From Escherichia coli (GTDB lineage: Bacteria > Pseudomonadota > Gammaproteobacteria > Enterobacterales > Enterobacteriaceae), in the NCBI RefSeq assembly GCF_003334305.1, contig NZ_QOWS01000014.1: 64,000 nucleotides of DNA. One strand, 5' to 3'. The notes under the pieces were generated by a model, which worked only from the letters and a program-made list of their open reading frames with translations, ran no database searches and was not told the DNA's origin. Positions 5 through 64,000 of this stretch are shown here, in pieces. Position 1 is the stretch's first letter; each line of letters begins with the position of its first letter. The translations under genes and the position numbers were made by a program.

Positions 5-565
5 TCAAAACTGAAAGCGCATCCAGGCAAAGTACACATTGCCATTGTTGTAGGTACCCGGAATGTAGGTCATCTGAAAAGTCACTGGGCCATAACCCAC
101 GGAGGCCAATGGCAGTAGAACCGGGAGAGGGATGTAATTCCAGTTATCGCGTGCCGTTACGCCAGCGGTGAATCCCAGACCTAAATGAAAATTTTCATCC
201 GCCAGCGGTCGCCAGGTACTTTCCCATCCGTATCCGGCAATCGGTTCCCATTTGTTCCACGAGTCCTTAAATGCCATGGCATACAGGCCATGCCAGTTTC
301 CTTTTTCATCCCAACGCGACAGGCCAAAACCGCCACCCCACGGTCGCTCGTTATAGCGATCGGTTTTTTCTTTGTCGTAAGCGAAACGTGCATGCCAGGT
401 GATGGCAGGAATATATAAATCATAATGTTCAGGCTGTTGCCAGGTTTGTGCAATATTTTCTCTAAACGTTGTCATCCACTCATCTGCGTTAGCAAAAACT
501 TTACCAACGCTGATTAACTGAATAAAAACAAAGGAAAAGATAGCGACATATTTACTCACGTTCAT
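5..565 (-). CDS. pagP: lipid A palmitoyltransferase PagP
   Basis: ORF 5..589 (-); protein [12 protein letters not shown]...FAWMRFQF recognised as PagP; start trimmed to the ATG giving MNVSKY (the ORF-track start is an upstream TTG). Confidence 0.9.
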
Positions 566-1153
566 TTGTGACCATAAAACATTTATCAAAAATCTACTAC
601 TAGCATAGCAAAGCTACAATTAACATAACCTTAATAGACCCAACATAAAGAATAATCTGAATAGCTGCTCTATTTATTTCCGCTTGTTCAAGTTAAATAT
701 TTCCGCGCATCGATTAAAGATGATGCGTCGTTTTCTGCGATGGGAATAGTCAAAAAAGAAAAACCAAGTCTTTTTTGATGACAAAATGCAATCAAGGAAA
801 AATTATTTTATTTTTTAACTAGATACAACAATCATCTTAACGAAGTATATAATATAAATCGTCAACCTATGCTCATGTTAGATTATTTTTTGAGCGCACA
901 GCCGCAGCTAACACCATTGCAATTAACAAATTTGCATCAATCCACCATCAATTTACACACATTATTATGTGATAATTGCCAACCGCTAAATATGCGTTTT
1001 GTTATCTATGTATAAAAACAGCAACTTCAATGTCTTAATGGCAGTTTTTCTTGATTTTAATCAGCATTCATCGCCAATTTATTGGGCATATTTTTTCCTT
1101 AAGCTTTAGGAATTTTTTATTATTTACTTTGGGGCCTGGAGACAGGAAAAATT

Positions 1154-2539
1154 ATGCTGACATTCATTGAACTCCTTATTGGGGTTGTGGTTATTGTGGG
1201 TGTAGCTCGCTACATCATTAAAGGGTATTCCGCCACTGGTGTGTTATTTGTCGGTGGCCTGTTATTGCTGATTATCAGTGCCATTATGGGGCACAAAGTG
1301 TTACCGTCCAGCCAGGCTTCAACAGGCTACAGCGCCACGGATATCGTTGAATACGTTAAAATATTACTAATGAGCCGCGGCGGCGACCTCGGCATGATGA
1401 TTATGATGCTGTGTGGATTTGCCGCTTACATGACCCATATCGGCGCGAATGATATGGTGGTCAAGCTGGCGTCAAAACCATTGCAGTATATTAACTCCCC
1501 TTACCTGCTGATGATTGCCGCCTATTTTGTCGCCTGTCTGATGTCTCTGGCCGTCTCTTCCGCAACCGGTCTGGGTGTTTTGCTGATGGCAACCCTATTT
1601 CCGGTGATGGTAAACGTTGGTATCAGTCGTGGCGCAGCTGCTGCCATTTGTGCCTCCCCGGCGGCGATTATTCTCGCACCGACTTCAGGGGATGTGGTGC
1701 TGGCGGCGCAAGCTTCCGAAATGTCGCTGATTGACTTCGCCTTCAAAACGACGCTGCCTATCTCAATTGCTGCAATTATCGGCATGGCGATCGCCCACTT
1801 CTTCTGGCAACGTTATCTGGATAAAAAAGAGCACATCTCTCATGAAATGTTAGATGTCAGTGAAATCACCACCACTGCTCCTGCGTTTTATGCCATTTTG
1901 CCGTTCACGCCGATCATCGGTGTACTGATTTTTGACGGTAAATGGGGTCCGCAATTACACATCATCACTATTCTGGTGATTTGTATGCTGATTGCCTCCA
2001 TTCTGGAGTTCCTCCGCAGCTTTAATACCCAGAAAGTTTTCTCTGGTCTGGAAGTGGCTTATCGCGGAATGGCAGATGCGTTTGCTAACGTGGTGATGCT
2101 GCTGGTTGCCGCTGGGGTATTCGCTCAGGGGCTTAGCACCATCGGCTTTATTCAAAGTCTGATTTCTATCGCTACCTCGTTTGGTTCGGCGAGTATCATC
2201 CTGATGCTGGTATTGGTGATTCTGACCATGCTGGCGGCAGTCACGACCGGTTCAGGCAATGCGCCGTTTTATGCGTTTGTTGAGATGATCCCGAAACTGG
2301 CGCACTCTTCCGGCATTAACCCGGCGTATTTGACTATCCCGATGCTGCAGGCGTCAAACCTGGGCCGTACCCTTTCGCCCGTTTCTGGCGTAGTCGTTGC
2401 GGTTGCCGGGATGGCGAAGATCTCGCCGTTTGAAGTCGTAAAACGCACCTCGGTACCGGTGCTTGTTGGTTTGGTGATTGTTATCGTTGCTACAGAGCTG
2501 ATGGTGCCAGGAACGGCAGCAGCGGTCACAGGCAAGTAA
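1154..2539 (+). CDS. dcuC: anaerobic C4-dicarboxylate transporter DcuC
   Basis: 461-aa polytopic membrane ORF, N-terminus MLTFIELLIGVVVIVG; length matches DcuC. Confidence 0.9.
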   Translation: MLTFIELLIGVVVIVGVARYIIKGYSATGVLFVGGLLLLIISAIMGHKVLPSSQASTGYSATDIVEYVKILLMSRGGDLGMMIMMLCGFAAYMTHIGANDMVVKLASKPLQYINSPYLLMIAAYFVACLMSLAVSSATGLGVLLMATLFPVMVNVGISRGAAAAICASPAAIILAPTSGDVVLAAQASEMSLIDFAFKTTLPISIAAIIGMAIAHFFWQRYLDKKEHISHEMLDVSEITTTAPAFYAILPFTPIIGVLIFDGKWGPQLHIITILVICMLIASILEFLRSFNTQKVFSGLEVAYRGMADAFANVVMLLVAAGVFAQGLSTIGFIQSLISIATSFGSASIILMLVLVILTMLAAVTTGSGNAPFYAFVEMIPKLAHSSGINPAYLTIPMLQASNLGRTLSPVSGVVVAVAGMAKISPFEVVKRTSVPVLVGLVIVIVATELMVPGTAAAVTGK

Positions 2540-3260: not shown

Positions 3261-4887
3261 TAGGTTTCACTTTCGGAATATAGATTGAAAACAAGGTACC
3301 GCAGGGATCATTATCTTCGAGAGTGATAACACCACCGCAGCGCGTTACGTAGCTGGCAATCAAGTACAACCCAATGCCATGTTCACCGGGCTCGTCAGCA
3401 CGCGTACTGACCCCCTGCTCAAATATTTTGTCTCGTAGAGACTCTGGAACGCCGCAGCCCTGATCGGCGACTTCAATCACCACATCATCGCCTTCATCGC
3501 TGAGGAATAATTCAACGATCTTGTTTCCTTCATCGCTACGCAGGCTGGCTTCGAAGGCGTTATCAAGTAAATTGCCCACAATGGCTGCAAACTCGGTGCT
3601 ATCCAGTCCTGGCGGCAGTTGCGAAAGCTGGCTACCGGGGACAATGATCATTTTTAGCCCCAGTTCCCGGGCGCGCTGCACTTTACCAAAAAGCAGCCCC
3701 GCCACCTGGCGATCGGCAAACGCCTCACGCAGGCTGTCAATAAGCTGTTGCTGGGCCTGAGACTCCCCCTGCACCATCGCCAGCACGCGATCATACTCTT
3801 TCATCTGCAACAGACCATTGAGCGTCGACATCCAATTGAGATGCTCGTGTCGCAATGTACGAAGGCTCTCGACGTATTGTTTTATTTGCGTCAGTTGCGC
3901 ATTGAGGGTGGAAATTTCGTCTTTACTACGAAAGCTGATAATGGCCCCCAGCAAATCATCACCTGAACGAATAGCTTCCCGATTGGCAATAACGCTCAGA
4001 CCGTTAAAGTTAGCCACCACATCCTGACGTTTTTCATCAATCTGTTCGGTAAAGAAATCGGCGGGCCTGACCACTTCAGCAATGGGTTTACCCAACCATT
4101 GCCGTCCGGGAGAGCTCAGCCCCAGCATCTTTCTTGCGTTACGATTGATGGCGGTAATGTAACCATGCGGATCCACCGCAATCAGCCCTTCATAAACCGA
4201 ACTAAACAGCGCCTCTTGCTGACGGACCACGCGTGCGATTTGCTTTGGCTCCATGCCCATCATTTGCCGACGGATATGCGCTGCCAGGAACCACGACAGC
4301 AACATCAGAATCCCTAACAGCACGACAAACACGCCTGCCATCGGTAATAAAAACTCAGCCCGCCAGCTATCGATTTTACTCACCAGGTAGCCAATCGACA
4401 CCACGCCGATGACTTTTCCATCGTCATCAAAGATTGGCGTTTTGGCGCGCATCGCCATCCCCATTGACCCTTTCCCGGTAATGAAGTAGCTCTCCCCTTT
4501 CTCCAGCGCGCCCTGTTTGGTGAACTGCATAGGATAACCAATTTTCTCCGGATTAGGATGGTAAAGGCGGATCGAGTGCCGGTCCCCAATCACCACATAA
4601 TCAAAATCGGTATCTCTTTGTAATTTGTTAGCGATGGTCGCCAGCCGTTTGTAGTCACGCGTTTTCACCGCAGAGATGACACTGTCATTGGAGGCAATAA
4701 TTTTCGCCTGATTCATTGCCATGTCGCGTACATGAAGCGTTAAATAGTCCTCAAAACTGGCCGTAAAATATTGCGCCAGGGCTGCAATGACAAATATTGA
4801 GAACACCAGAATCAGCAAAAAGATACGCAGCGGAAATGCCAGTCTTTGGAAAAATGCAAACTGTTTATTCTCGTTAAGCTGCAACAT
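3229..4887 (-). CDS. dpiB: sensor histidine kinase DpiB (CitA), citrate sensing
   Basis: ORF 3229..4947 (-); start trimmed to the ATG giving MLQLNENKQFAFF (552 aa); two TM segments, PAS-like periplasmic domain, HATPase C-terminus. Confidence 0.88.
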   Translation of the reverse strand: MLQLNENKQFAFFQRLAFPLRIFLLILVFSIFVIAALAQYFTASFEDYLTLHVRDMAMNQAKIIASNDSVISAVKTRDYKRLATIANKLQRDTDFDYVVIGDRHSIRLYHPNPEKIGYPMQFTKQGALEKGESYFITGKGSMGMAMRAKTPIFDDDGKVIGVVSIGYLVSKIDSWRAEFLLPMAGVFVVLLGILMLLSWFLAAHIRRQMMGMEPKQIARVVRQQEALFSSVYEGLIAVDPHGYITAINRNARKMLGLSSPGRQWLGKPIAEVVRPADFFTEQIDEKRQDVVANFNGLSVIANREAIRSGDDLLGAIISFRSKDEISTLNAQLTQIKQYVESLRTLRHEHLNWMSTLNGLLQMKEYDRVLAMVQGESQAQQQLIDSLREAFADRQVAGLLFGKVQRARELGLKMIIVPGSQLSQLPPGLDSTEFAAIVGNLLDNAFEASLRSDEGNKIVELFLSDEGDDVVIEVADQGCGVPESLRDKIFEQGVSTRADEPGEHGIGLYLIASYVTRCGGVITLEDNDPCGTLFSIYIPKVKPNDSSINPIDR

Positions 4888-5266
4888 TGTTTTCCTTGCG
4901 GGTTGTCCCGAGCCTCTTTGACGGATGTAATTAAAATGTTGAATCAAAATACATAGATATTAATTATGATCGTGGCAAATTTTATTCATTAAATCAATTA
5001 AATCACTTAAACCTGCTGGTCATTTCGTAATTACATTAATTAAAAAACTTAAAACCATTAAATAAATAAAAAACCACTAACTCTATGTGAAATAAATCAA
5101 AATTTCACGCCGAAATACTCCTTAGGATGTATAGCGAAAGGAGAAAAAGATATACCTCGATCACCCCCCTTTCTCCCAAGTGAAAATAAAAGGTTATCAG
5201 TTTGCAACATTGAACAACATTCGTTGCAAATCGATAACAACATGCACCTTCAGGATACTATTTATT

Positions 5267-6325
5267 ATGTTCGGCAATGATATTTTCACCCGCGTAAAAC
5301 GTTCAGAAAATAAAAAAATGGCGGAAATCGCCCAATTCCTGCATGAAAATGATTTGAGCGTTGACACCACAGTCGAAGTATTTATTACCGTAACCCGCGA
5401 TGAAAAGCTTATCGCGTGCGGTGGAATTGCCGGAAATATTATTAAATGCGTTGCTATCAGTGAATCCGTTCGCGGTGAAGGACTGGCGCTGACATTAGCC
5501 ACTGAACTGATAAACCTCGCCTATGAGCGGCACAGCACGCATCTGTTTATTTATACCAAAACCGAATACGAGGCGCTGTTCCGCCAGTGCGGTTTTTCCA
5601 CGCTGACCAGCGTACCCGGCGTGATGGTGCTGATGGAAAACAGCGCCACGCGGCTGAAACGCTATGCCGAATCGCTGAAAAAATTTCGTCATCCAGGGAA
5701 CAAGATTGGCTGCATTGTGATGAACGCCAATCCCTTCACGAATGGTCACCGTTATCTGATTCAACAAGCTGCGGCACAGTGCAACTGGTTGCATCTGTTT
5801 TTAGTCAAAGAAGATTCTTCACGCTTCCCCTATGAAGACCGGTTGGATCTGGTGTTAAAAGGCACCGCCGATATTCCACGCCTGACTGTGCATCGCGGCT
5901 CCGAATACATCATCTCCCGCGCTACGTTCCCTTGCTACTTCATTAAAGAACAGAGCGTCATTAACCATTGTTACACCGAAATTGATCTGAAGATTTTCCG
6001 TCAGTACCTCGCTCCCGCGCTGGGTGTAACTCACCGCTTTGTCGGTACTGAACCCTTTTGTCGCGTTACCGCCCAGTACAACCAGGATATGCGCTACTGG
6101 CTGGAAACGCCGACTATCTCCGCACCGCCCATCGAACTGGTTGAAATTGAGCGGCTGCGTTACCAGGAGATGCCGATATCCGCTTCCCGGGTACGTCAAC
6201 TGCTGGCGAAAAACGATCTCACGGCTATCGCGCCGCTGGTCCCTGCAGTCACGCTGCATTATTTGCAGAACCTGCTTGAGCACTCCCGCCAGGACGCGGC
6301 AGCTCGTCAAAAGACCCCCGCATGA
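5267..6325 (+). CDS. citC: [citrate (pro-3S)-lyase] ligase CitC
   Basis: ORF 5180..6325; start trimmed to ATG at 5267 (MFGNDIFTRVK..., 352 aa); first gene of the citCDEFXG operon. Confidence 0.9.
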   Translation: MFGNDIFTRVKRSENKKMAEIAQFLHENDLSVDTTVEVFITVTRDEKLIACGGIAGNIIKCVAISESVRGEGLALTLATELINLAYERHSTHLFIYTKTEYEALFRQCGFSTLTSVPGVMVLMENSATRLKRYAESLKKFRHPGNKIGCIVMNANPFTNGHRYLIQQAAAQCNWLHLFLVKEDSSRFPYEDRLDLVLKGTADIPRLTVHRGSEYIISRATFPCYFIKEQSVINHCYTEIDLKIFRQYLAPALGVTHRFVGTEPFCRVTAQYNQDMRYWLETPTISAPPIELVEIERLRYQEMPISASRVRQLLAKNDLTAIAPLVPAVTLHYLQNLLEHSRQDAAARQKTPA

Positions 6326-19430: not shown

Positions 19431-20333
19431 ATGGCCAATCTCTACGACTTGAAAAAGTTCGACTTAAACCTTCTTGTCATATTTGAGTGTATTTACCAGC
19501 ATTTAAGCATTAGCAAAGCTGCTGAATCACTATATATCACCCCATCAGCCGTGAGCCAGTCGTTACAACGCTTACGTGCGCAATTTAATGACCCTTTATT
19601 CATTCGCTCAGGAAAAGGTATCGCGCCGACGACAACAGGGTTGAATCTGCATCACCATCTTGAGAAAAACCTCAAAGGCCTTGAACAAACAATTAATATA
19701 GTCAATAAGTCCGAACTAAAGAAAAACTTTATTATCTACGGCCCTCAGCTCATTTCTTGCTCTAATAATAGTATGCTGATCCGCTGCCTACGGCAAGATG
19801 CCTCTGTCGAGATTGAGTGCCATGATATCCTCATGTCAGCAGAGAATGCTGAAGAACTGTTGGTTCACCGCAAAGCCGATCTGGTGATCACCCAAATGCC
19901 AGTGATCAGCCGTTCCGTCATTTGCATGCCATTGCATACAATTCGCAATACTCTAATTTGTAGTAATAAGCATCCGCGAATTACTGACAATAGCACTTAT
20001 GAACAAATTATGGCAGAAGAGTTCACCCAATTAATATCCAAATCAGCAGGAGTTGATGATATTCAAATGGAAATAGACGAGAAGTTTATGAATCGCAAAA
20101 TTTCATTTCGTGGTTCCTCTTTGCTGACAATCATTAATAGCATTGCAGTTACAGATTTACTGGGAATAGTCCCCTATGAACTTTATAATTCCTACCGTGA
20201 CTTTCTTAATTTAAAAGAGATAAAACTAGAACATCCGTTACCTTCAATAAAGCTTTACATTTCCTATAATAAATCTTCTTTAAATAATTTGGTGTTCTCC
20301 CGATTTATTGACCGTCTAAATGAGAGTTTTTGA
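19431..20333 (+). CDS. ybdO: LysR-family transcriptional regulator YbdO
   Basis: 300-aa ORF with N-terminal HTH (LSISKAAESLYITPSAVSQSLQRLR); markedly AT-rich coding region. Confidence 0.85.
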   Translation: MANLYDLKKFDLNLLVIFECIYQHLSISKAAESLYITPSAVSQSLQRLRAQFNDPLFIRSGKGIAPTTTGLNLHHHLEKNLKGLEQTINIVNKSELKKNFIIYGPQLISCSNNSMLIRCLRQDASVEIECHDILMSAENAEELLVHRKADLVITQMPVISRSVICMPLHTIRNTLICSNKHPRITDNSTYEQIMAEEFTQLISKSAGVDDIQMEIDEKFMNRKISFRGSSLLTIINSIAVTDLLGIVPYELYNSYRDFLNLKEIKLEHPLPSIKLYISYNKSSLNNLVFSRFIDRLNESF

Positions 20334-20479
20334 TATATAACTACAGACAGCTACTATAACTTTCATCTATTTATTCACAGCGCGAATGAAAAATAAAACA
20401 CTCTGCTTTGCAGTGTTTACTTTATAATTAACAGACTTATCTCACTGATCACCCTGTAACGTTCAGAGAGCGTCTTCAG

Positions 20480-21700
20480 ATGTCTATTTATAAAATTCCT
20501 CTTCCGCTCAATATTCTGGAAGCTGCACGAGAGCGTATTACCTGGACACTCAACACCCTACCCCGCGTTTGTGTCTCATTTTCTGGCGGCAAAGACTCTG
20601 GTTTAATGCTGCATCTGACAGCCGAACTTGCCCGACAAATGGGCAAAAAAATCTGCGTTTTGTTTATCGACTGGGAGGCGCAATTCTCTTGCACCATTAA
20701 CTATGTTCAGTCCCTGCGCGAGTTGTACACCGATGTCATCGAAGAGTTTTACTGGGTTGCGCTCCCGCTTACGACGCAAAATTCCCTTTCACAATACCAA
20801 CCCGAATGGCAGTGCTGGGAACCTGATGTCGAATGGGTGCGTCAGCCCCCGCAAGATGCGATAACCGATCCTGACTTTTTCTGCTTTTACCAGCCAGGCA
20901 TGACCTTCGAACAATTTGTACGTGAGTTTGCCGAATGGTTTTCACAAAAACGTCCGGCGGCGATGATGATCGGCATCCGTGCGGATGAGTCCTACAACCG
21001 TTTTGTCGCCATCGCCAGTTTAAATAAACAACGTTTTGCCGACGATAAACCATGGACTACGGCCGCACCAGGCGGTCATAGCTGGTACATTTACCCCATT
21101 TACGACTGGAAAGTGGCTGATATCTGGACCTGGTATGCAAATCATCAAAGTCTCTGCAACCCACTGTATAACCTAATGTATCAGGCAGGCGTTCCTCTGC
21201 GTCATATGCGAATTTGCGAACCTTTTGGCCCGGAGCAACGACAAGGATTATGGCTCTATCACGTTATCGAACCGGATCGCTGGGCTGCTATGTGCGCACG
21301 AGTCAGCGGGGTAAAAAGTGGCGGCATTTACGCCGGACATGATAATCATTTCTATGGGCATCGGAAAATCCTCAAGCCAGAACATTTAGACTGGCAAGAA
21401 TATGCATTATTGCTGCTCAATAGCATGCCGGAAAAAACAGCTGAGCATTACCGCAATAAAATCGCCATTTATTTGCACTGGTATCAGAAAAAAGGCATCG
21501 AGGTTCCACAAACCCAGCAAGGGGACATTGGCGCGAAAGATATCCCCTCCTGGCGGCGGATATGCAAAGTTTTACTCAATAACGATTACTGGTGTCGGGC
21601 ATTATCATTTAGTCCTACGAAAGCGAAGAACTATCAGCGTTATAACGAACGGATAAAAGGAAAACGTCAGGAATGGGGGATACTATGCAACAACGATTAA
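20480..21700 (+). CDS. ybdN: PAPS-reductase-like (DUF3440) protein YbdN, IbrA homolog
   Basis: 406-aa ORF; N-terminal SGGKDS PP-loop motif (VCVSFSGGKDSGLMLHL). Confidence 0.85.
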   Translation: MSIYKIPLPLNILEAARERITWTLNTLPRVCVSFSGGKDSGLMLHLTAELARQMGKKICVLFIDWEAQFSCTINYVQSLRELYTDVIEEFYWVALPLTTQNSLSQYQPEWQCWEPDVEWVRQPPQDAITDPDFFCFYQPGMTFEQFVREFAEWFSQKRPAAMMIGIRADESYNRFVAIASLNKQRFADDKPWTTAAPGGHSWYIYPIYDWKVADIWTWYANHQSLCNPLYNLMYQAGVPLRHMRICEPFGPEQRQGLWLYHVIEPDRWAAMCARVSGVKSGGIYAGHDNHFYGHRKILKPEHLDWQEYALLLLNSMPEKTAEHYRNKIAIYLHWYQKKGIEVPQTQQGDIGAKDIPSWRRICKVLLNNDYWCRALSFSPTKAKNYQRYNERIKGKRQEWGILCNND

Positions 21701-60609: not shown

Positions 60610-61293
60610 ATGAAACTGTTGATTGTCGAAGATGAAAAGAAAACCGGAGAATACTTGACCAAAGGGTTAACCGAAGCCGGTTTTGTGGTCGATTTGGCCG
60701 ACAACGGGCTGAATGGCTACCATCTGGCGATGACCGGTGATTATGATCTGATAATCCTCGATATTATGCTGCCGGACGTGAACGGCTGGGATATCGTGCG
60801 CATGTTACGCTCCGCCAATAAAGGGATGCCGATTCTGTTGCTTACCGCGCTTGGCACCATTGAACATCGCGTCAAGGGGCTGGAGTTGGGGGCAGATGAC
60901 TACCTGATGAAACCATTCGCTTTTGCTGAACTGCTGGCGCGGGTGCGCACTCTCCTGCGGCGCGGGGCGGCGGTAATTATCGAAAGTCAGTTTCAGGTTG
61001 CCGACCTGATGGTCGATCTCGTCAGCCGCAAAGTCACCCGCAGCGGCACGCGCATCACTCTGACCAGTAAAGAGTTTACTCTGCTGGAGTTTTTTCTCCG
61101 CCATCAGGGCGAAGTGCTGCCCCGCTCGCTTATCGCCTCGCAGGTGTGGGACATGAATTTCGACAGCGACACTAACGCCATTGATGTGGCGGTGAAGCGG
61201 CTACGCGGCAAAATCGACAACGACTTTGAGCCGAAGCTGATTCAGACCGTGCGCGGCGTGGGCTATATGCTTGAGGTGCCGGATGGTCAGTAA
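60610..61293 (+). CDS. cusR: copper-responsive OmpR-family response regulator CusR
   Basis: 227-aa [28 protein letters not shown]; GGAGGA RBS. Confidence 0.93.
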
Positions 61294-62731
61294 GCCATTT
61301 CAGCGCCCGTTTTCGCTGGCAACCCGTCTGACCTTTTTTATCAGCCTGGCCACCATCGCGGCGTTTTTCGCCTTTGCATGGATCATGATCCACTCAGTGA
61401 AAGTGCATTTTGCCGAGCAGGATATTAATGATTTAAAAGAAATTAGCGCCACCCTTGAACGGGTACTTAATCATCCTGACGAGACGCAAGCCCGACGCTT
61501 AATGACGCTGGAAGATATCGTCAGTGGTTATTCCAACGTGTTGATTTCCCTGGCAGATAGCCACGGCAAAACGGTGTATCACTCCCCCGGTGCGCCGGAT
61601 ATCCGCGAGTTTACGCGTGACGCCATACCCGATAAAGACGCGCGGGGCGGTGAGGTGTATCTCCTTTCCGGCCCGACGATGATGATGCCAGGCCACGGTC
61701 ACGGGCATATGGAACACAGCAACTGGCGGATGATTAACTTGCCGGTTGGCCCGTTGGTGGACGGCAAACCGATTTATACGCTCTACATCGCGCTTTCGAT
61801 CGATTTTCATCTTCATTACATAAATGATTTGATGAATAAACTTATTATGACCGCATCTGTCATCAGCATCCTGATCGTCTTTATCGTGCTATTGGCGGTA
61901 CATAAAGGTCACGCGCCGATCCGCAGCGTCAGCCGTCAAATCCAGAATATCACCTCGAAAGATCTCGACGTTCGCCTTGACCCGCAGACCGTGCCCATTG
62001 AGCTGGAACAGCTGGTACTGTCGTTCAACCATATGATCGAGCGTATTGAGGATGTCTTTACCCGCCAGTCCAATTTCTCAGCGGATATCGCTCACGAAAT
62101 TCGCACGCCGATTACCAATCTCATCACGCAAACGGAAATCGCCCTCAGCCAGTCTCGCAGCCAGAAGGAGCTGGAAGATGTGCTCTACTCTAATCTCGAA
62201 GAGCTGACGCGAATGGCGAAAATGGTCAGCGATATGCTGTTTCTCGCTCAGGCCGATAACAACCAGCTAATCCCCGAAAAGAAAATGCTCAACCTGGCGG
62301 ATGAAGTCGGCAAAGTGTTCGATTTTTTCGAGGCGTTAGCGGAAGATCGCGGCGTGGAGTTGCGGTTTGTTGGCGACAAATGTCAGGTTGCGGGCGATCC
62401 GCTGATGCTGCGTCGGGCGTTAAGCAACCTGCTTTCTAATGCCCTGCGTTATACGCCACCCAGTGAGGCTATTGTAGTGCGCTGCCAGACGGTCAATCAT
62501 CAGGTGCAAGTTTCCGTCGAAAACCCCGGTACGCCCATTGCGCCCGAGCACTTACCGCGATTGTTTGACCGTTTCTATCGCGTTGACCCTTCCCGCCAGC
62601 GAAAAGGTGAAGGTAGCGGTATTGGGCTGGCGATAGTGAAATCGATTGTTGTCGCGCATAAAGGCACGGTTGCGGTAACGTCAGATGCGCGGGGGACAAG
62701 GTTTGTGATTATGCTGCCGGAGAGAGAGTGA
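61283..62731 (+). CDS. cusS: copper/silver sensor histidine kinase CusS
   Basis: ORF 61271..62731 (track start is TTG); ATG at 61283 gives [22 protein letters not shown]; overlaps the cusR 3' end by 11 bp. Confidence 0.9.
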
Positions 62732-63467
62732 TTATTAAGTTCAAATTCAGGGCGTGGTGCATCACCTCCTGGTATTGTTGATCAACAAATTAGAGAAAAA
62801 CTTATTAAACATATGAAATATCGAAGGCTTTTATTTTTCAAAGTTTCACGAGATGTTTGTATATGAAACTTAGTTAAATCTGTGTTTCTTCCAATTGTAG
62901 ATCACAATGCCCTTTCTAAATTTTCATCGTTATAAACAAGCCATCTATCATATAAAGCAATGAATAATTTAATCGCGATTAATCATCATTAATTGTTATA
63001 TTATTCACTCAATCTATTTATCAAGTGAATTTGATAAATTCCTAATTTAAAATATCCACTATTGAGCCAGTATTTAACAACGTTAAGATGTGCAATGTGC
63101 AGATCATGTTATCAGGGTGGAGCGGTAGCATATATTTCTTATGCAATCATTCATTTTAATAATGTTAATTGGATTATTTATTGCTGTGAATAAAAATATA
63201 TTATGAATATTGGTTTAACTTTGCGTTTTTGTTACTCGTTGTGATATGCGTACCTGTCCTGAATAACGCCAAGAAACAAGAGGTTGAGCTTGTGATTATT
63301 TTTTTGACTGAACAGACACCCGTTTCTGTAAAGTAATATTTAAACAAAATTCTCACATAACCATAGCATTTTCTGTTCCTTCCCTAATAACGTCTGAAGT
63401 CGTCCCGCTTATCACATTATCCGCAGTTGTACGGTACGGATCATTATTCATTTTACCGGAGGTTGCT
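62732..63467. other. AT-rich ORF-free spacer between cusS and the vgrG-like gene
   Basis: ~735 bp of strongly AT-rich sequence with no ORF of 60 codons or more on either strand; sharp compositional contrast with flanking genes. Confidence 0.6.
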
Positions 63468-64000
63468 ATGTCAACCGGATTACGTTTCACACTGGAAGTG
63501 GACGGCCTGCCGCCGGATGCTTTTGCGGTGGTTTCCTTTCATCTGAACCAGTCACTCTCTTCGCTCTTTTCCCTCGATCTCTCCCTGGTCAGCCAGCAGT
63601 TTCTCTCCCTTGAATTTGCGCAGGTGCTGGACAAAATGGCCTACCTGACGATATGGCAGGGCGATGAAGTACAGCGCCGGGTGAAAGGCGTGGTGACCTG
63701 GTTTGAACTCGGGGAGAACGACAAAAACCAGATGCTGTACAGCATGAAGGTGCACCCGCCGCTGTGGCGTGCCGGTCTGCGCCAGAACTTCCGTATCTTC
63801 CAGAACGAGGACATCAAAAGCATCCTCGGCACGATGTTGCAGGAAAACGGGGTGACCGAATGGAGTCCGCTGTTCAGCGAGCCGCATCCTTCCCGTGAGT
63901 TTTGTGTCCAGTACGGTGAGACTGATTACGATTTCCTGTGCCGGATGGCGGCGGAGGAAGGCATCTTCTTTTATGAGGAGCACGCGCAAAAAAGTACCGA
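63468..64000 (+). CDS. vgrG: VgrG-like type VI secretion spike protein, N-terminal part only (runs off the window)
   Basis: ATG at 63468 preceded by GGAGG RBS; translation MSTGLRFTLEVDGLPPDAFAVVSFHLNQSLSSLFSLDLSLVSQQFLSLEFAQVLDK... is a typical VgrG N-terminus; not on the ORF track because there is no stop within the window. Confidence 0.75.
   Translation, partial: MSTGLRFTLEVDGLPPDAFAVVSFHLNQSLSSLFSLDLSLVSQQFLSLEFAQVLDKMAYLTIWQGDEVQRRVKGVVTWFELGENDKNQMLYSMKVHPPLWRAGLRQNFRIFQNEDIKSILGTMLQENGVTEWSPLFSEPHPSREFCVQYGETDYDFLCRMAAEEGIFFYEEHAQKST

What the first reader, a model, noticed from the sequence alone, without database searches (positions are those of the whole stretch)
62732..63467. 735-bp AT-rich ORF-free leader in front of vgrG
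The spacer between cusS and vgrG is much more AT-rich than the surrounding genes and has no ORF of 60 codons or more on either strand. Regions like this in front of horizontally acquired genes are typical H-NS-silenced promoter regions and may also hold the island junction or a small RNA. It marks a compositional discontinuity at the core/accessory boundary.
Basis: seen in the sequence. Interest (0 to 1): 0.35.

Follow-up and report, generated by a model that had tools for sequence, protein, structure and literature searches.

The report
AT-rich silent leader of vgrG island
The AT-rich gap between cusS and vgrG is real but ordinary: it is the upstream control region of an accessory type VI secretion toxin island, most likely kept silent by the nucleoid protein H-NS, and it holds no detectable small RNA or protein gene.

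Summary
Window 62732-63467 (736 bp) lies between the cusS stop and the vgrG ATG (63468). It has 31.6% GC against 51.9% for the window, the lowest of all 736-bp windows. Its longest ORF is 51 aa, which is what this base composition gives by chance.

The whole spacer is accessory DNA. K-12 has a 149-bp cusS-nfrB spacer, and divergence starts 24 nt inside cusS (62708). 52% of complete E. coli genomes carry the island junction and 43% the empty site.

The spacer is modular:
- 246 bp found only at the cusS site.
- A 154-bp module (62978-63131) shared by three vgrG-Rhs island types, ending in the invariant 20-mer TATCAGGGTGGRGCGGTAGC.
- About 300 bp shared only with the RhsE/yncH island leader (about 80% identity).
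- A ribosome-binding region kept nearly identical along with vgrG.

The K-12 paralogous leader is H-NS-bound in published ChIP-seq and SELEX data and binds RpoD holoenzyme. In EHEC the operon's upstream start site is silent.

I found no Rfam match, terminator, stable RNA fold or conserved peptide. The promoter itself remains unmapped.

Verdict: an H-NS-silenced regulatory leader of an orphan T6SS island. It is a new member of a known kind and of low to moderate interest.

The parts
61283..62731 (+). cusS (Cu/Ag sensor kinase), 482 aa. It is 94-100% identical to K-12 up to position 62707.
   Evidence: NCBIfam NF007345, 987 bits, full length. RefSeq annotation in the 100%-identical strain E2865. 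Per-100-column identity to K-12.
62708..62731 (+). Variant cusS tail (...VIMLPERE* against ...VITLPA* in K-12). This is where the window first departs from K-12. It is homologous at the protein level but differs at successive third codon positions, as if it arrived with the island from a divergent donor.
   Evidence: Direct reading of K-12 against the window and the MAFFT alignment.
62732..62977 (.). cusS-site-specific AT-rich segment (246 bp, GC 0.305). It is present only next to cusS. It is about 74% identical in the NRZ96052a variant, partly deleted in O157:H7, and absent from the yncH and ansP islands.
   Evidence: 38% identity, i.e. unalignable, against the RhsE leader; 2847 genomes, always beside cusS.
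62978..63131 (+). Conserved portable module (154 bp, GC 0.299) shared by three vgrG-Rhs island types: the cusS site, the yncH/RhsE site, and the ansP-site ETEC1738/E1V33/E. whittamii type. Homology with the third type stops abruptly at its 3' end. It is a candidate promoter/operator cassette.
   Evidence: Alignments A1 and A3. Sliding identity 0.88-0.95 over 63015-63134. Window vs ETEC1738: upstream flank z = 20, downstream flank z = -0.1.
63027..63041 (.). Palindrome GAATTT-GAT-AAATTC, with arms conserved and centre variable among variants. It contains TTGATAAATT (63031-63040), one mismatch from the H-NS high-affinity motif TCGATAAATT.
   Evidence: Motif from PMC2094087. A one-mismatch hit is not enriched on its own: 19 found against 15 expected in the window.
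63074..63086 (.). Palindrome TTAAC-AAC-GTTAA, with arms conserved and centre variable. The CGTTAAGAT part is also kept in S. electus.
63110..63129 (+). Invariant GC-rich 20-mer TATCAGGGTGGAGCGGTAGC at the 3' edge of the module. It is identical (apart from the R position) in every variant, is present in 4740 of 5426 E. coli genomes at 1-3 copies each, and is never under an annotated feature.
63109..63136 (+). Candidate sigma-70 promoter TTATCA-16-TATATT, kept in the RhsG and RhsE leaders. Its -10 is lost in the ansP-type and S. electus versions, so the assignment is uncertain. It would give a 5' UTR of about 325 nt.
63132..63433 (+). Leader segment shared only with the RhsE/yncH island (about 62-90% identity in 40-column windows across this segment). 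It is the putative long 5' UTR or a second regulatory region. It contains a second promoter candidate, TTGACT-19-TAAAGT (63304-63334).
   Evidence: No excess RNA stability (z = +1.38).
63434..63467 (+). Ribosome-binding region: GGAGG at 63458-63462, 5 nt before the ATG. From about here downstream the cusS-site and yncH-site copies become 95-100% identical.
   Evidence: The 12 nt before the ATG are also identical upstream of vgrG3 in the Sakai main cluster.
63468..64000 (+). 5' part of vgrG (T6SS spike protein), cut by the window end. It is the first gene of the vgrG / DcrB-like / Rhs toxin / immunity island that ends with ISEc1 before nfrB.
   Evidence: TIGR01646 and TIGR03361. Island gene content in the identical strain E2865.

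Best explanation
The spacer is the non-coding upstream control region of an orphan type VI secretion cargo island: vgrG, a DcrB/DUF1795-like chaperone gene, an Rhs toxin, its immunity gene, orphan toxin fragments and ISEc1. This is the 'vgrG1 / S-loop 44 / RhsG-side' island, inserted directly after cusS. It belongs entirely to the island. It most likely works as an AT-rich platform that H-NS coats, keeping the promoter or promoters of the vgrG-rhs operon off under ordinary growth. Within it, a 154-bp conserved module (62978-63131) probably carries the promoter and operator sites, and the roughly 300 nt between that module and the ribosome-binding site are transcribed as a long 5' leader. Shown here: the composition, island membership, population distribution, modular conservation, and absence of recognisable RNA or protein genes. 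Inferred: H-NS occupancy (from the K-12 paralogue), silence of the upstream promoter (from EHEC data on a 95%-identical allele), and the positions of the promoter and 5' UTR.
For: Composition and ORF content. Island membership and junctions: K-12 has a 149-bp cusS-nfrB spacer, divergence starts at 62708, and K-12 homology resumes after ISEc1 in E2865. The locus is accessory: 2847 island-type against 2327 empty-site genomes. The paralogous leader upstream of rhsE in K-12 (about 80% identical) lies in an H-NS-bound region by ChIP-seq (PMC10294691 Table 1) and carries an H-NS SELEX site plus an RpoD-holoenzyme SELEX peak (PMC3946193 Table 3). [quoted passage not shown] The T6SS of EHEC is H-NS-repressed (PMC5363993 and PMC13141884). 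Modular conservation points to a cis-regulatory cassette: the module is kept in front of different downstream genes. The module also holds a conserved near-consensus H-NS nucleation motif.
Against: There are no H-NS occupancy or start-site data for this exact allele. The two elements experimentally localised in the K-12 paralogue are not conserved in the window. The predicted TTGACT-17-TATTAC promoter is broken here by an 11-bp deletion between the hexamers, and the PhoB box is also lost. No single sigma-70 promoter is conserved in all variants, and promoter-like sites are not denser than background. The H-NS motif hit is not statistically unusual, and TpA steps are slightly below expectation for the base composition (72 against 85 +/- 6). 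The leader is much less conserved (about 80%) than the adjoining vgrG 5' kilobase (97-99.9%), so most of it is under weak constraint. Replacing the vgrG1 promoter in EDL933 did not give VgrG1 or RhsF protein (PMC13141884), so transcriptional silencing cannot be the whole story.
Confidence: 0.7

Rival explanations
1. The 154-bp module with its invariant GC-rich 20-mer is the operator or promoter for a dedicated, still unidentified regulator (activator, counter-silencer or alternative sigma factor). That regulator would switch on T6SS cargo islands in Escherichia, with H-NS only as the backdrop. This adds to the best explanation rather than excluding it.
For: The 20-mer is invariant in variants whose surrounding module is only about 74% identical and whose downstream DNA is unrelated. 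Two palindromes keep their arms while their centres vary. The module sits in front of different cargo gene sets. It is present in 87% of E. coli genomes. There is precedent in P. aeruginosa, where orphan vgrG islands share an RpoN/Sfa2 promoter motif (PMC8855297).
Against: No copy of the motif occurs in the main T6SS cluster of Sakai: the best match is 14/20, equal to shuffles. By hand alignment to the sigma-54 consensus (recalled, not scored with a tool), the match is poor: GGGTGG against TGGCAC at -24. The GATC next to the motif is not conserved. Only a handful of independent variants exist, and two sets were found by searching for the motif itself, which biases its apparent invariance. The S. 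electus copy is not next to recognisable T6SS genes.
Confidence: 0.25
2. The module is mainly a recombination arm. It would be a conserved left flank that, together with the conserved vgrG or Rhs core on the right, lets different cargo sets be swapped in by homologous recombination, with no regulatory role required.
For: Homology between island types ends sharply at the module's 3' edge. The NRZ96052a leader is a mosaic of RhsG-like and RhsE-like parts. The vgrG 5' kilobase is homogenised between loci. The locus also undergoes IS-mediated rearrangements.
Against: Recombination arms need no invariant 20-mer and no palindromes with conserved arms. The module is short for efficient RecA-dependent exchange at 74-80% identity. 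No recombinase gene is adjacent.
Confidence: 0.15
3. The spacer encodes a small RNA or a small protein or leader peptide, for example the ORF MCRSCYQGGAVAY... that runs through the invariant motif.
For: The reading frame through the motif is open in the window, RhsE, ETEC1738 and S. electus versions. The two substitutions between the RhsG and RhsE types in that stretch are synonymous. A post-transcriptional block on vgrG1 has been proposed (PMC13141884).
Against: Rfam gives nothing above noise: the best hits are 19 and 18 bits against gathering scores of 40 and 46. No intrinsic terminator was found. There is no excess folding energy on either strand. In E. whittamii the ORF's ATG is AGG and a stop comes earlier, while the DNA motif is intact. 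The C-terminal part of the ORF differs completely between variants. No NCBIfam hit exists for any spacer ORF.
Confidence: 0.06
4. The spacer is functionless decayed DNA that happens to be AT-rich, and vgrG is transcribed from elsewhere or not at all.
For: Most of the leader is weakly conserved. The first 246 bp are dispensable, being partly deleted in O157. The operon is silent in every data set found.
Against: The module is conserved across island types whose flanks are unalignable. RpoD holoenzyme binds the paralogous spacer in vitro. cusS and vgrG are separated by 736 bp with no alternative promoter position.
Confidence: 0.08

Closest known systems
The yncH-rhsE intergenic region of E. coli K-12 (leader of the RhsE/vgrE island; vgrG2/z2262 side in EHEC)
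   Same: It is a true paralogue. Window 63015-63415 aligns at about 80% identity, with the same module and the same invariant 20-mer. It is AT-rich, H-NS-bound, and carries an RpoD-holoenzyme SELEX peak.
   Different: It sits at a different chromosomal site. Its first ~330 bp are unrelated to the window's first 246 bp. In K-12, vgrG is deleted and the leader is fused to the rhsE pseudogene. The K-12 PhoB box and the predicted TTGACT-17-TATTAC promoter are not conserved in the window.
h3R, the hcp3-vgrG3 intergenic regulatory region of the EHEC main T6SS cluster (PMC13141884)
   Same: It is a non-coding region directly upstream of a vgrG gene that limits VgrG production in an H-NS-repressed system. 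The same paper reports that swapping the vgrG1 promoter, which is this locus, did not yield protein.
   Different: There is no sequence homology apart from 12 nt at the ribosome-binding site. h3R is about 210 bp, follows hcp3, and contains a terminator; no terminator is found here.
Xenogeneic silencing by H-NS at AT-rich promoter regions of acquired islands (for example proU-type high-affinity sites, PMC2094087)
   Same: It is AT-rich, accessory and transcriptionally silent. It holds a conserved near-consensus nucleation motif, and its homologue is bound in vivo.
   Different: Occupancy on this allele is untested. The downstream genes are not AT-rich (vgrG is 55% GC), so any silencing would have to act at the leader rather than across the island.
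RpoN/Sfa2-dependent promoters shared by the P. aeruginosa H2-T6SS and its orphan vgrG islands (PMC8855297)
   Same: The concept matches: a short conserved motif upstream of dispersed vgrG cargo islands. The 20-mer has GG-N10-GC spacing.
   Different: The -24/-12 consensus is not matched (hand alignment to the consensus as I recall it), and the motif is absent from the main cluster of Sakai. I do not file it here.

Membership tests
H-NS-silenced (xenogeneic silencing) promoter region | Markedly more AT-rich than the host genome | tested here: met
   GC 0.316 against 0.519, the lowest of 1266 windows.
H-NS-silenced (xenogeneic silencing) promoter region | Lies in horizontally acquired or accessory DNA | tested here: met
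   Absent from K-12. Junctions mapped. 2847 island-type against 2327 empty-site genomes.
H-NS-silenced (xenogeneic silencing) promoter region | H-NS occupancy in vivo or in vitro | not testable with these tools
   Indirect only: the ~80%-identical K-12 paralogue is H-NS-bound by ChIP-seq (flag in PMC10294691 Table 1) and by SELEX (PMC3946193).
H-NS-silenced (xenogeneic silencing) promoter region | Downstream genes silent in wild type and derepressed without H-NS | not testable with these tools
   Silence is documented for the O157 allele. Derepression in an hns mutant is reported for the EHEC T6SS in general, not for this operon.
H-NS-silenced (xenogeneic silencing) promoter region | High-affinity nucleation motif tCG(t/a)T(a/t)AATT | tested here: inconclusive
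   One 1-mismatch site at 63031-63040, conserved among variants. Such sites are not enriched: 19 against 15 expected in the window.
Orphan vgrG-Rhs T6SS cargo island (Rhs element, 'vgrG1' / S-loop 44 type) | vgrG followed by a DUF1795/DcrB-like chaperone gene, Rhs toxin, immunity gene, orphan toxin fragments and an H-repeat (ISEc1) element | tested here: met
   VgrG N-terminus in the window. The rest is read from the RefSeq annotation of strain E2865, which matches the 737-nt query (the spacer plus the first base of vgrG) at 100%.
Orphan vgrG-Rhs T6SS cargo island (Rhs element, 'vgrG1' / S-loop 44 type) | Located away from the main T6SS structural cluster | tested here: met
   It lies between cusS and nfrB. 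In Sakai the main cluster is at aspV.
Small RNA gene | Match to a described RNA family | tested here: not met
   Rfam 15 in E-value mode: the best hits are 19.4 and 18.2 bits against gathering scores of 40 and 46.
Small RNA gene | Intrinsic terminator or unusually stable fold | tested here: not met
   0 terminator-like sites. Fold z-scores +1.38, -0.64 and -1.00.
Sigma-54 promoter | TGGCAC-N5-TTGCW consensus at -24/-12 | tested here: not met
   The GG-N10-GC spacing is present, but the -24 element reads GGGTGG and the -12 element TAGCR. This was hand inspection sequences against the consensus recalled from memory, matching about 5 of 9 key positions.
Upstream ORF / leader peptide | Start codon and reading frame conserved in all homologues | tested here: not met
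   The ATG is AGG and a stop comes earlier in E. whittamii. The C-terminal parts are unrelated between variants.
Core/island junction inside the spacer | Homology to the empty site ends within 62732-63467 | tested here: not met
   Homology to K-12 ends at 62707, inside cusS. The whole spacer is island-side.

The most novel reading that the evidence does not exclude
The 154-bp module (62978-63131), ending in the invariant 20-mer TATCAGGGTGGRGCGGTAGC, may be a dedicated and so far undescribed cis-regulatory cassette of Escherichia T6SS cargo islands. It would be read by an unknown regulator, or act at the start of the transcript. That could explain why these orphan vgrG-Rhs operons stay off even when H-NS is removed or the promoter is replaced.
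Probability: 0.2. Interest if true: 0.55.

Novelty: new member of a known kind. Interest (0 to 1): 0.27.

Why it matters
Orphan vgrG-Rhs islands supply much of the toxin repertoire of E. coli, including EHEC, yet nobody has been able to switch them on in the laboratory and their native promoters are unmapped. This analysis gives precise island boundaries and shows which ~150 bp are conserved while the rest of the leader drifts. It also shows that the elements mapped in the K-12 paralogue are not shared. Together these narrow where to look for the control elements. Beyond that, the finding is an ordinary example of an AT-rich, H-NS-type silenced leader.

Tried and rejected
- **Small RNA:** the Rfam E-value search, terminator scan and folding z-scores on both strands were all negative.
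- **Small protein or uORF:** the frame through the invariant motif is open in four variants, but the start is lost and the ORF truncated in E. whittamii. No family hits were found.
- **Single conserved sigma-70 promoter:** a PWM scan across five leader variants found four positionally conserved weak candidates but no clear one, and no enrichment over background.
- **Shared operator with the main T6SS cluster:** no motif copy in 48 kb of the Sakai cluster; the best match is 14/20, equal to shuffles.
- **Sigma-54 promoter:** the spacing fits but the consensus does not (hand inspection against the consensus recalled from memory).
- **Dam/Fur-type control as in sci1 (recalled, not looked up):** the GATC beside the motif is absent in the ansP-type and S. 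electus versions. Fur boxes were not formally scored.
- **Phage association:** the single viral-collection hit is an E. coli yncH-RhsE leader at a contig edge.
- **Wider phylogeny:** the genome-collection scan found only E. whittamii, Escherichia sp. E1V33 and S. electus. About one chance hit is expected for this 20-mer. The S. electus flanks share only ~25 collinear nt (z = 4.9 against one variant, not significant against the others) and its neighbours are not recognisable T6SS genes.
- **H140 as a clue to the native boundary:** it is an IS903B-mediated deletion.
- **Wang, Zhao & Hill 1998 (original RhsG/vgrG description):** not held in the library.

Full report
**Observation**

The cusS stop codon is at 62729-62731 and the vgrG ATG at 63468-63470, so the spacer is 62732-63467, 736 bp. 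I first misread the ATG as 63469, and exposed the error. CusS is full length (NF007345, 987 bits). The downstream ORF is a VgrG N-terminus (TIGR01646, 128 bits against a cut-off of 121.8) cut by the window end.

Spacer GC is 0.316 against 0.519 for the window. That is the lowest of 1266 windows of that size, while cusS is 0.523 and the vgrG fragment 0.550. The longest ORF on either strand is 51 aa. That equals the mean of 1000 shuffles (51 +/- 15 aa), so 'ORF-free' adds nothing beyond composition.

**Where it belongs**

In K-12 the cusS-nfrB spacer is 149 bp. In strain E2865, which matches the 737-nt query (the spacer plus the first base of vgrG) at 100%, cusS is followed by the 736-bp spacer and then vgrG, a DcrB-related gene, a 4.7-kb Rhs toxin, an immunity gene, orphan fragments, ISEc1 and nfrB.

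K-12 and the window are 94-100% identical through cusS until 62707 and then diverge. The last codons still encode V-I-(T/M)-L-P but differ at successive third positions. The sequence breakpoint is therefore 24 nt inside cusS, and the structural insertion point is at the stop codon. K-12 homology resumes at CAAACGGCAAC after ISEc1, which is the same point where K-12 matches restart in island carriers.

The island-type junction is present in 2847 of 5426 complete genomes, always next to cusS. The uninterrupted K-12-type junction is present in 2327. The spacer is therefore accessory DNA.

**Anatomy**

Comparison with other loci shows that the spacer is modular.

- **Positions 62732-62977** occur only at the cusS site. 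They are about 74% identical in the NRZ96052a variant and partly deleted in O157:H7.
- **From about 62978** the sequence is homologous to the leader of the vgrG-RhsE island at yncH, about 80% identical overall. K-12 retains that leader fused to the rhsE pseudogene.
- **A third island type at ansP** (ETEC1738, Escherichia sp. E1V33, E. whittamii) shares only 62978-63131, at about 74% identity. There the module precedes two extra genes before vgrG, or other genes. Window against ETEC1738 gives z = 20 for the upstream flank and z = -0.1 for the downstream flank, so the module ends sharply.
- **At the module's 3' edge** lies TATCAGGGTGGRGCGGTAGC (63110-63129). It is invariant in all variants and present in 4740 of 5426 genomes without any annotation.
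- **Two palindromes**, GAATTT-GAT-AAATTC (63027-63041) and TTAAC-AAC-GTTAA (63074-63086), keep their arms while their centres vary.

The leader is much less conserved than the gene it precedes. The vgrG 5' kilobase is 97-99.9% identical between the two loci. High identity begins only about 35 nt before the ATG.

**Function: evidence from homologues and the literature**

- The yncH-rhsE spacer of K-12 carries an RpoD-holoenzyme SELEX peak and an H-NS SELEX site (PMC3946193 Table 3).
- A PhoB ChIP-seq peak at 1527862 in that leader is flagged as lying in an H-NS-bound region according to the Kahramanoglou 2011 ChIP-seq (PMC10294691 Table 1).
- In EHEC this island is the vgrG1 (z0707) orphan locus, S-loop 44 in Sakai (PMC7216683, PMC5363993, PMC12981562).
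- z0706 had no reads in 10 of 11 conditions (PMC4048457).
- Swapping the vgrG1 promoter in EDL933 did not yield VgrG1 or RhsF, and the authors suggest an additional post-transcriptional block (PMC13141884).

These data support an H-NS-type silenced regulatory leader. They concern a paralogue (about 80% identical) or the O157 allele (about 95% identical), not this exact sequence.

**Caveats on the promoter**

The K-12 predicted promoter TTGACT-17-TATTAC is disrupted in the window by an 11-bp deletion between the hexamers, and the PhoB box is also not conserved.

A PWM scan found four positionally conserved but weak sigma-70 candidates: TTATCA-16-TATATT at 63109-63136, TTGAGC-16-TAAGAT at 63062-63089, GTGAAT-17-TAAAAT at 63025-63053, and TTGACT-19-TAAAGT at 63304-63334. 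Their density is not above background. The -10 of the first is lost in the ansP-type and S. electus versions, whereas its 'spacer', the 20-mer, is invariant. That is the opposite of what a plain promoter predicts.

The conserved TTGATAAATT is one mismatch from the H-NS nucleation motif (PMC2094087). Such hits are not enriched: 19 were found against 15 expected.

**Alternatives tested**

- **Small RNA:** no Rfam match, no terminator, and no excess folding energy on either strand.
- **Peptide:** the frame through the 20-mer is open in four variants, but the ATG is AGG and a stop comes earlier in E. whittamii, and no family hits exist.
- **Shared operator with the main T6SS cluster:** absent from 48 kb of the Sakai cluster.
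- **Sigma-54 promoter:** the spacing fits but the consensus does not (hand inspection against the consensus as I recall it).
- **Beyond Escherichia:** only Superficieibacter electus carries the 20-mer. About one chance hit is expected, its flanks share only about 25 collinear nt, and its neighbours are not recognisable T6SS genes. I give this little weight.

**Verdict**

The object is a new member of a known kind. The one unexplained feature is the sharply bounded 154-bp module with its invariant GC-rich 20-mer. Its role as operator, start-of-transcript element or recombination arm cannot be settled without experiments.

Noticed in passing
window 63434-64000; L007 9440-10480: The first ~1 kb of vgrG is 97-99.9% identical between the cusS-site and yncH-site islands, while the leaders are ~80% and the vgrG 3' ends ~48% identical. 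High identity starts ~35 nt before the ATG. This looks like gene conversion or homogenisation of the vgrG 5' half between paralogous loci.
   Followed up: partly
L006 9001-9743 (strain NRZ96052a): This cusS-site leader is a mosaic. Its cusS-proximal part resembles the window (74%), but its core is closer to the RhsE-type leader (87%) than to the window (81%), and its vgrG is 99.9% identical to the RhsE-side vgrG over the first kilobase. That indicates recombination between the two loci.
   Followed up: partly
L004 3154-3890 (K-12 yncH-rhsE spacer): K-12 keeps the paralogous leader even though vgrG is deleted, and the leader is fused directly to the rhsE pseudogene. The published PhoB ChIP-seq site (CATGACATTTTTCTGATA) and the predicted TTGACT-17-TATTAC promoter lie in it, and both are lost in the window's version.
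   Followed up: yes
window 62708-62731: The CusS C-terminus differs between island carriers (...VIMLPERE*, 482 aa) and K-12 (...VITLPA*, 480 aa), and a third tail (...MIKLPEKG*) occurs in NRZ96052a. Whether the tail matters for the kinase is unknown.
   Followed up: no
L008 5387-6140; L013 7033-8033: Two strains have lost the island by IS-mediated deletion starting in or just before the spacer. IS1 follows spacer position 386 and removes everything up to ybcH. IS903B follows 8 nt past the cusS stop and removes everything up to envY.
   Followed up: partly
L009 6403-7286 (ETEC1738); L012 6262-7145: The ansP-site island type has two extra genes between the module and vgrG. One is a 176-aa protein with no Pfam or NCBIfam hit. 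The other is a 118-aa protein with a sub-threshold hit to a putative T6SS immunity periplasmic lipoprotein (NF045617, 30.9 bits against a cut-off of 43). They may be an effector/immunity pair.
   Followed up: partly
window 63098-63196 (+): A small ORF, MCRSCYQGGAVAYISYAIIHFNNVNWIIYCCE, runs through the invariant 20-mer. The frame is open in four variants, but the start is lost in E. whittamii and the tails are unrelated.
   Followed up: yes
window 590-1153: The only other stretch of the window as AT-rich as the spacer (GC about 0.32) is the divergent intergenic region between pagP (5-589, minus strand) and dcuC (1154-2539, plus strand). I identified both genes from their translations, not with a tool. 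The dcuC/pagP spacer is flagged as an H-NS site in the RpoD SELEX table (PMC3946193).
   Followed up: partly
window ~4550-5600 and ~19650-20750: Two further moderately AT-rich patches (GC about 0.36-0.38 over 737 bp) were seen in the composition scan and not examined.
   Followed up: no
L010 3860-3879 (Superficieibacter electus): The invariant 20-mer, plus about 25 collinear upstream nucleotides, occurs in an intergenic region between small ORFs of unknown function. This lies downstream of a hydrolase-methyltransferase fusion gene, with no vgrG within 3.8 kb.
   Followed up: partly
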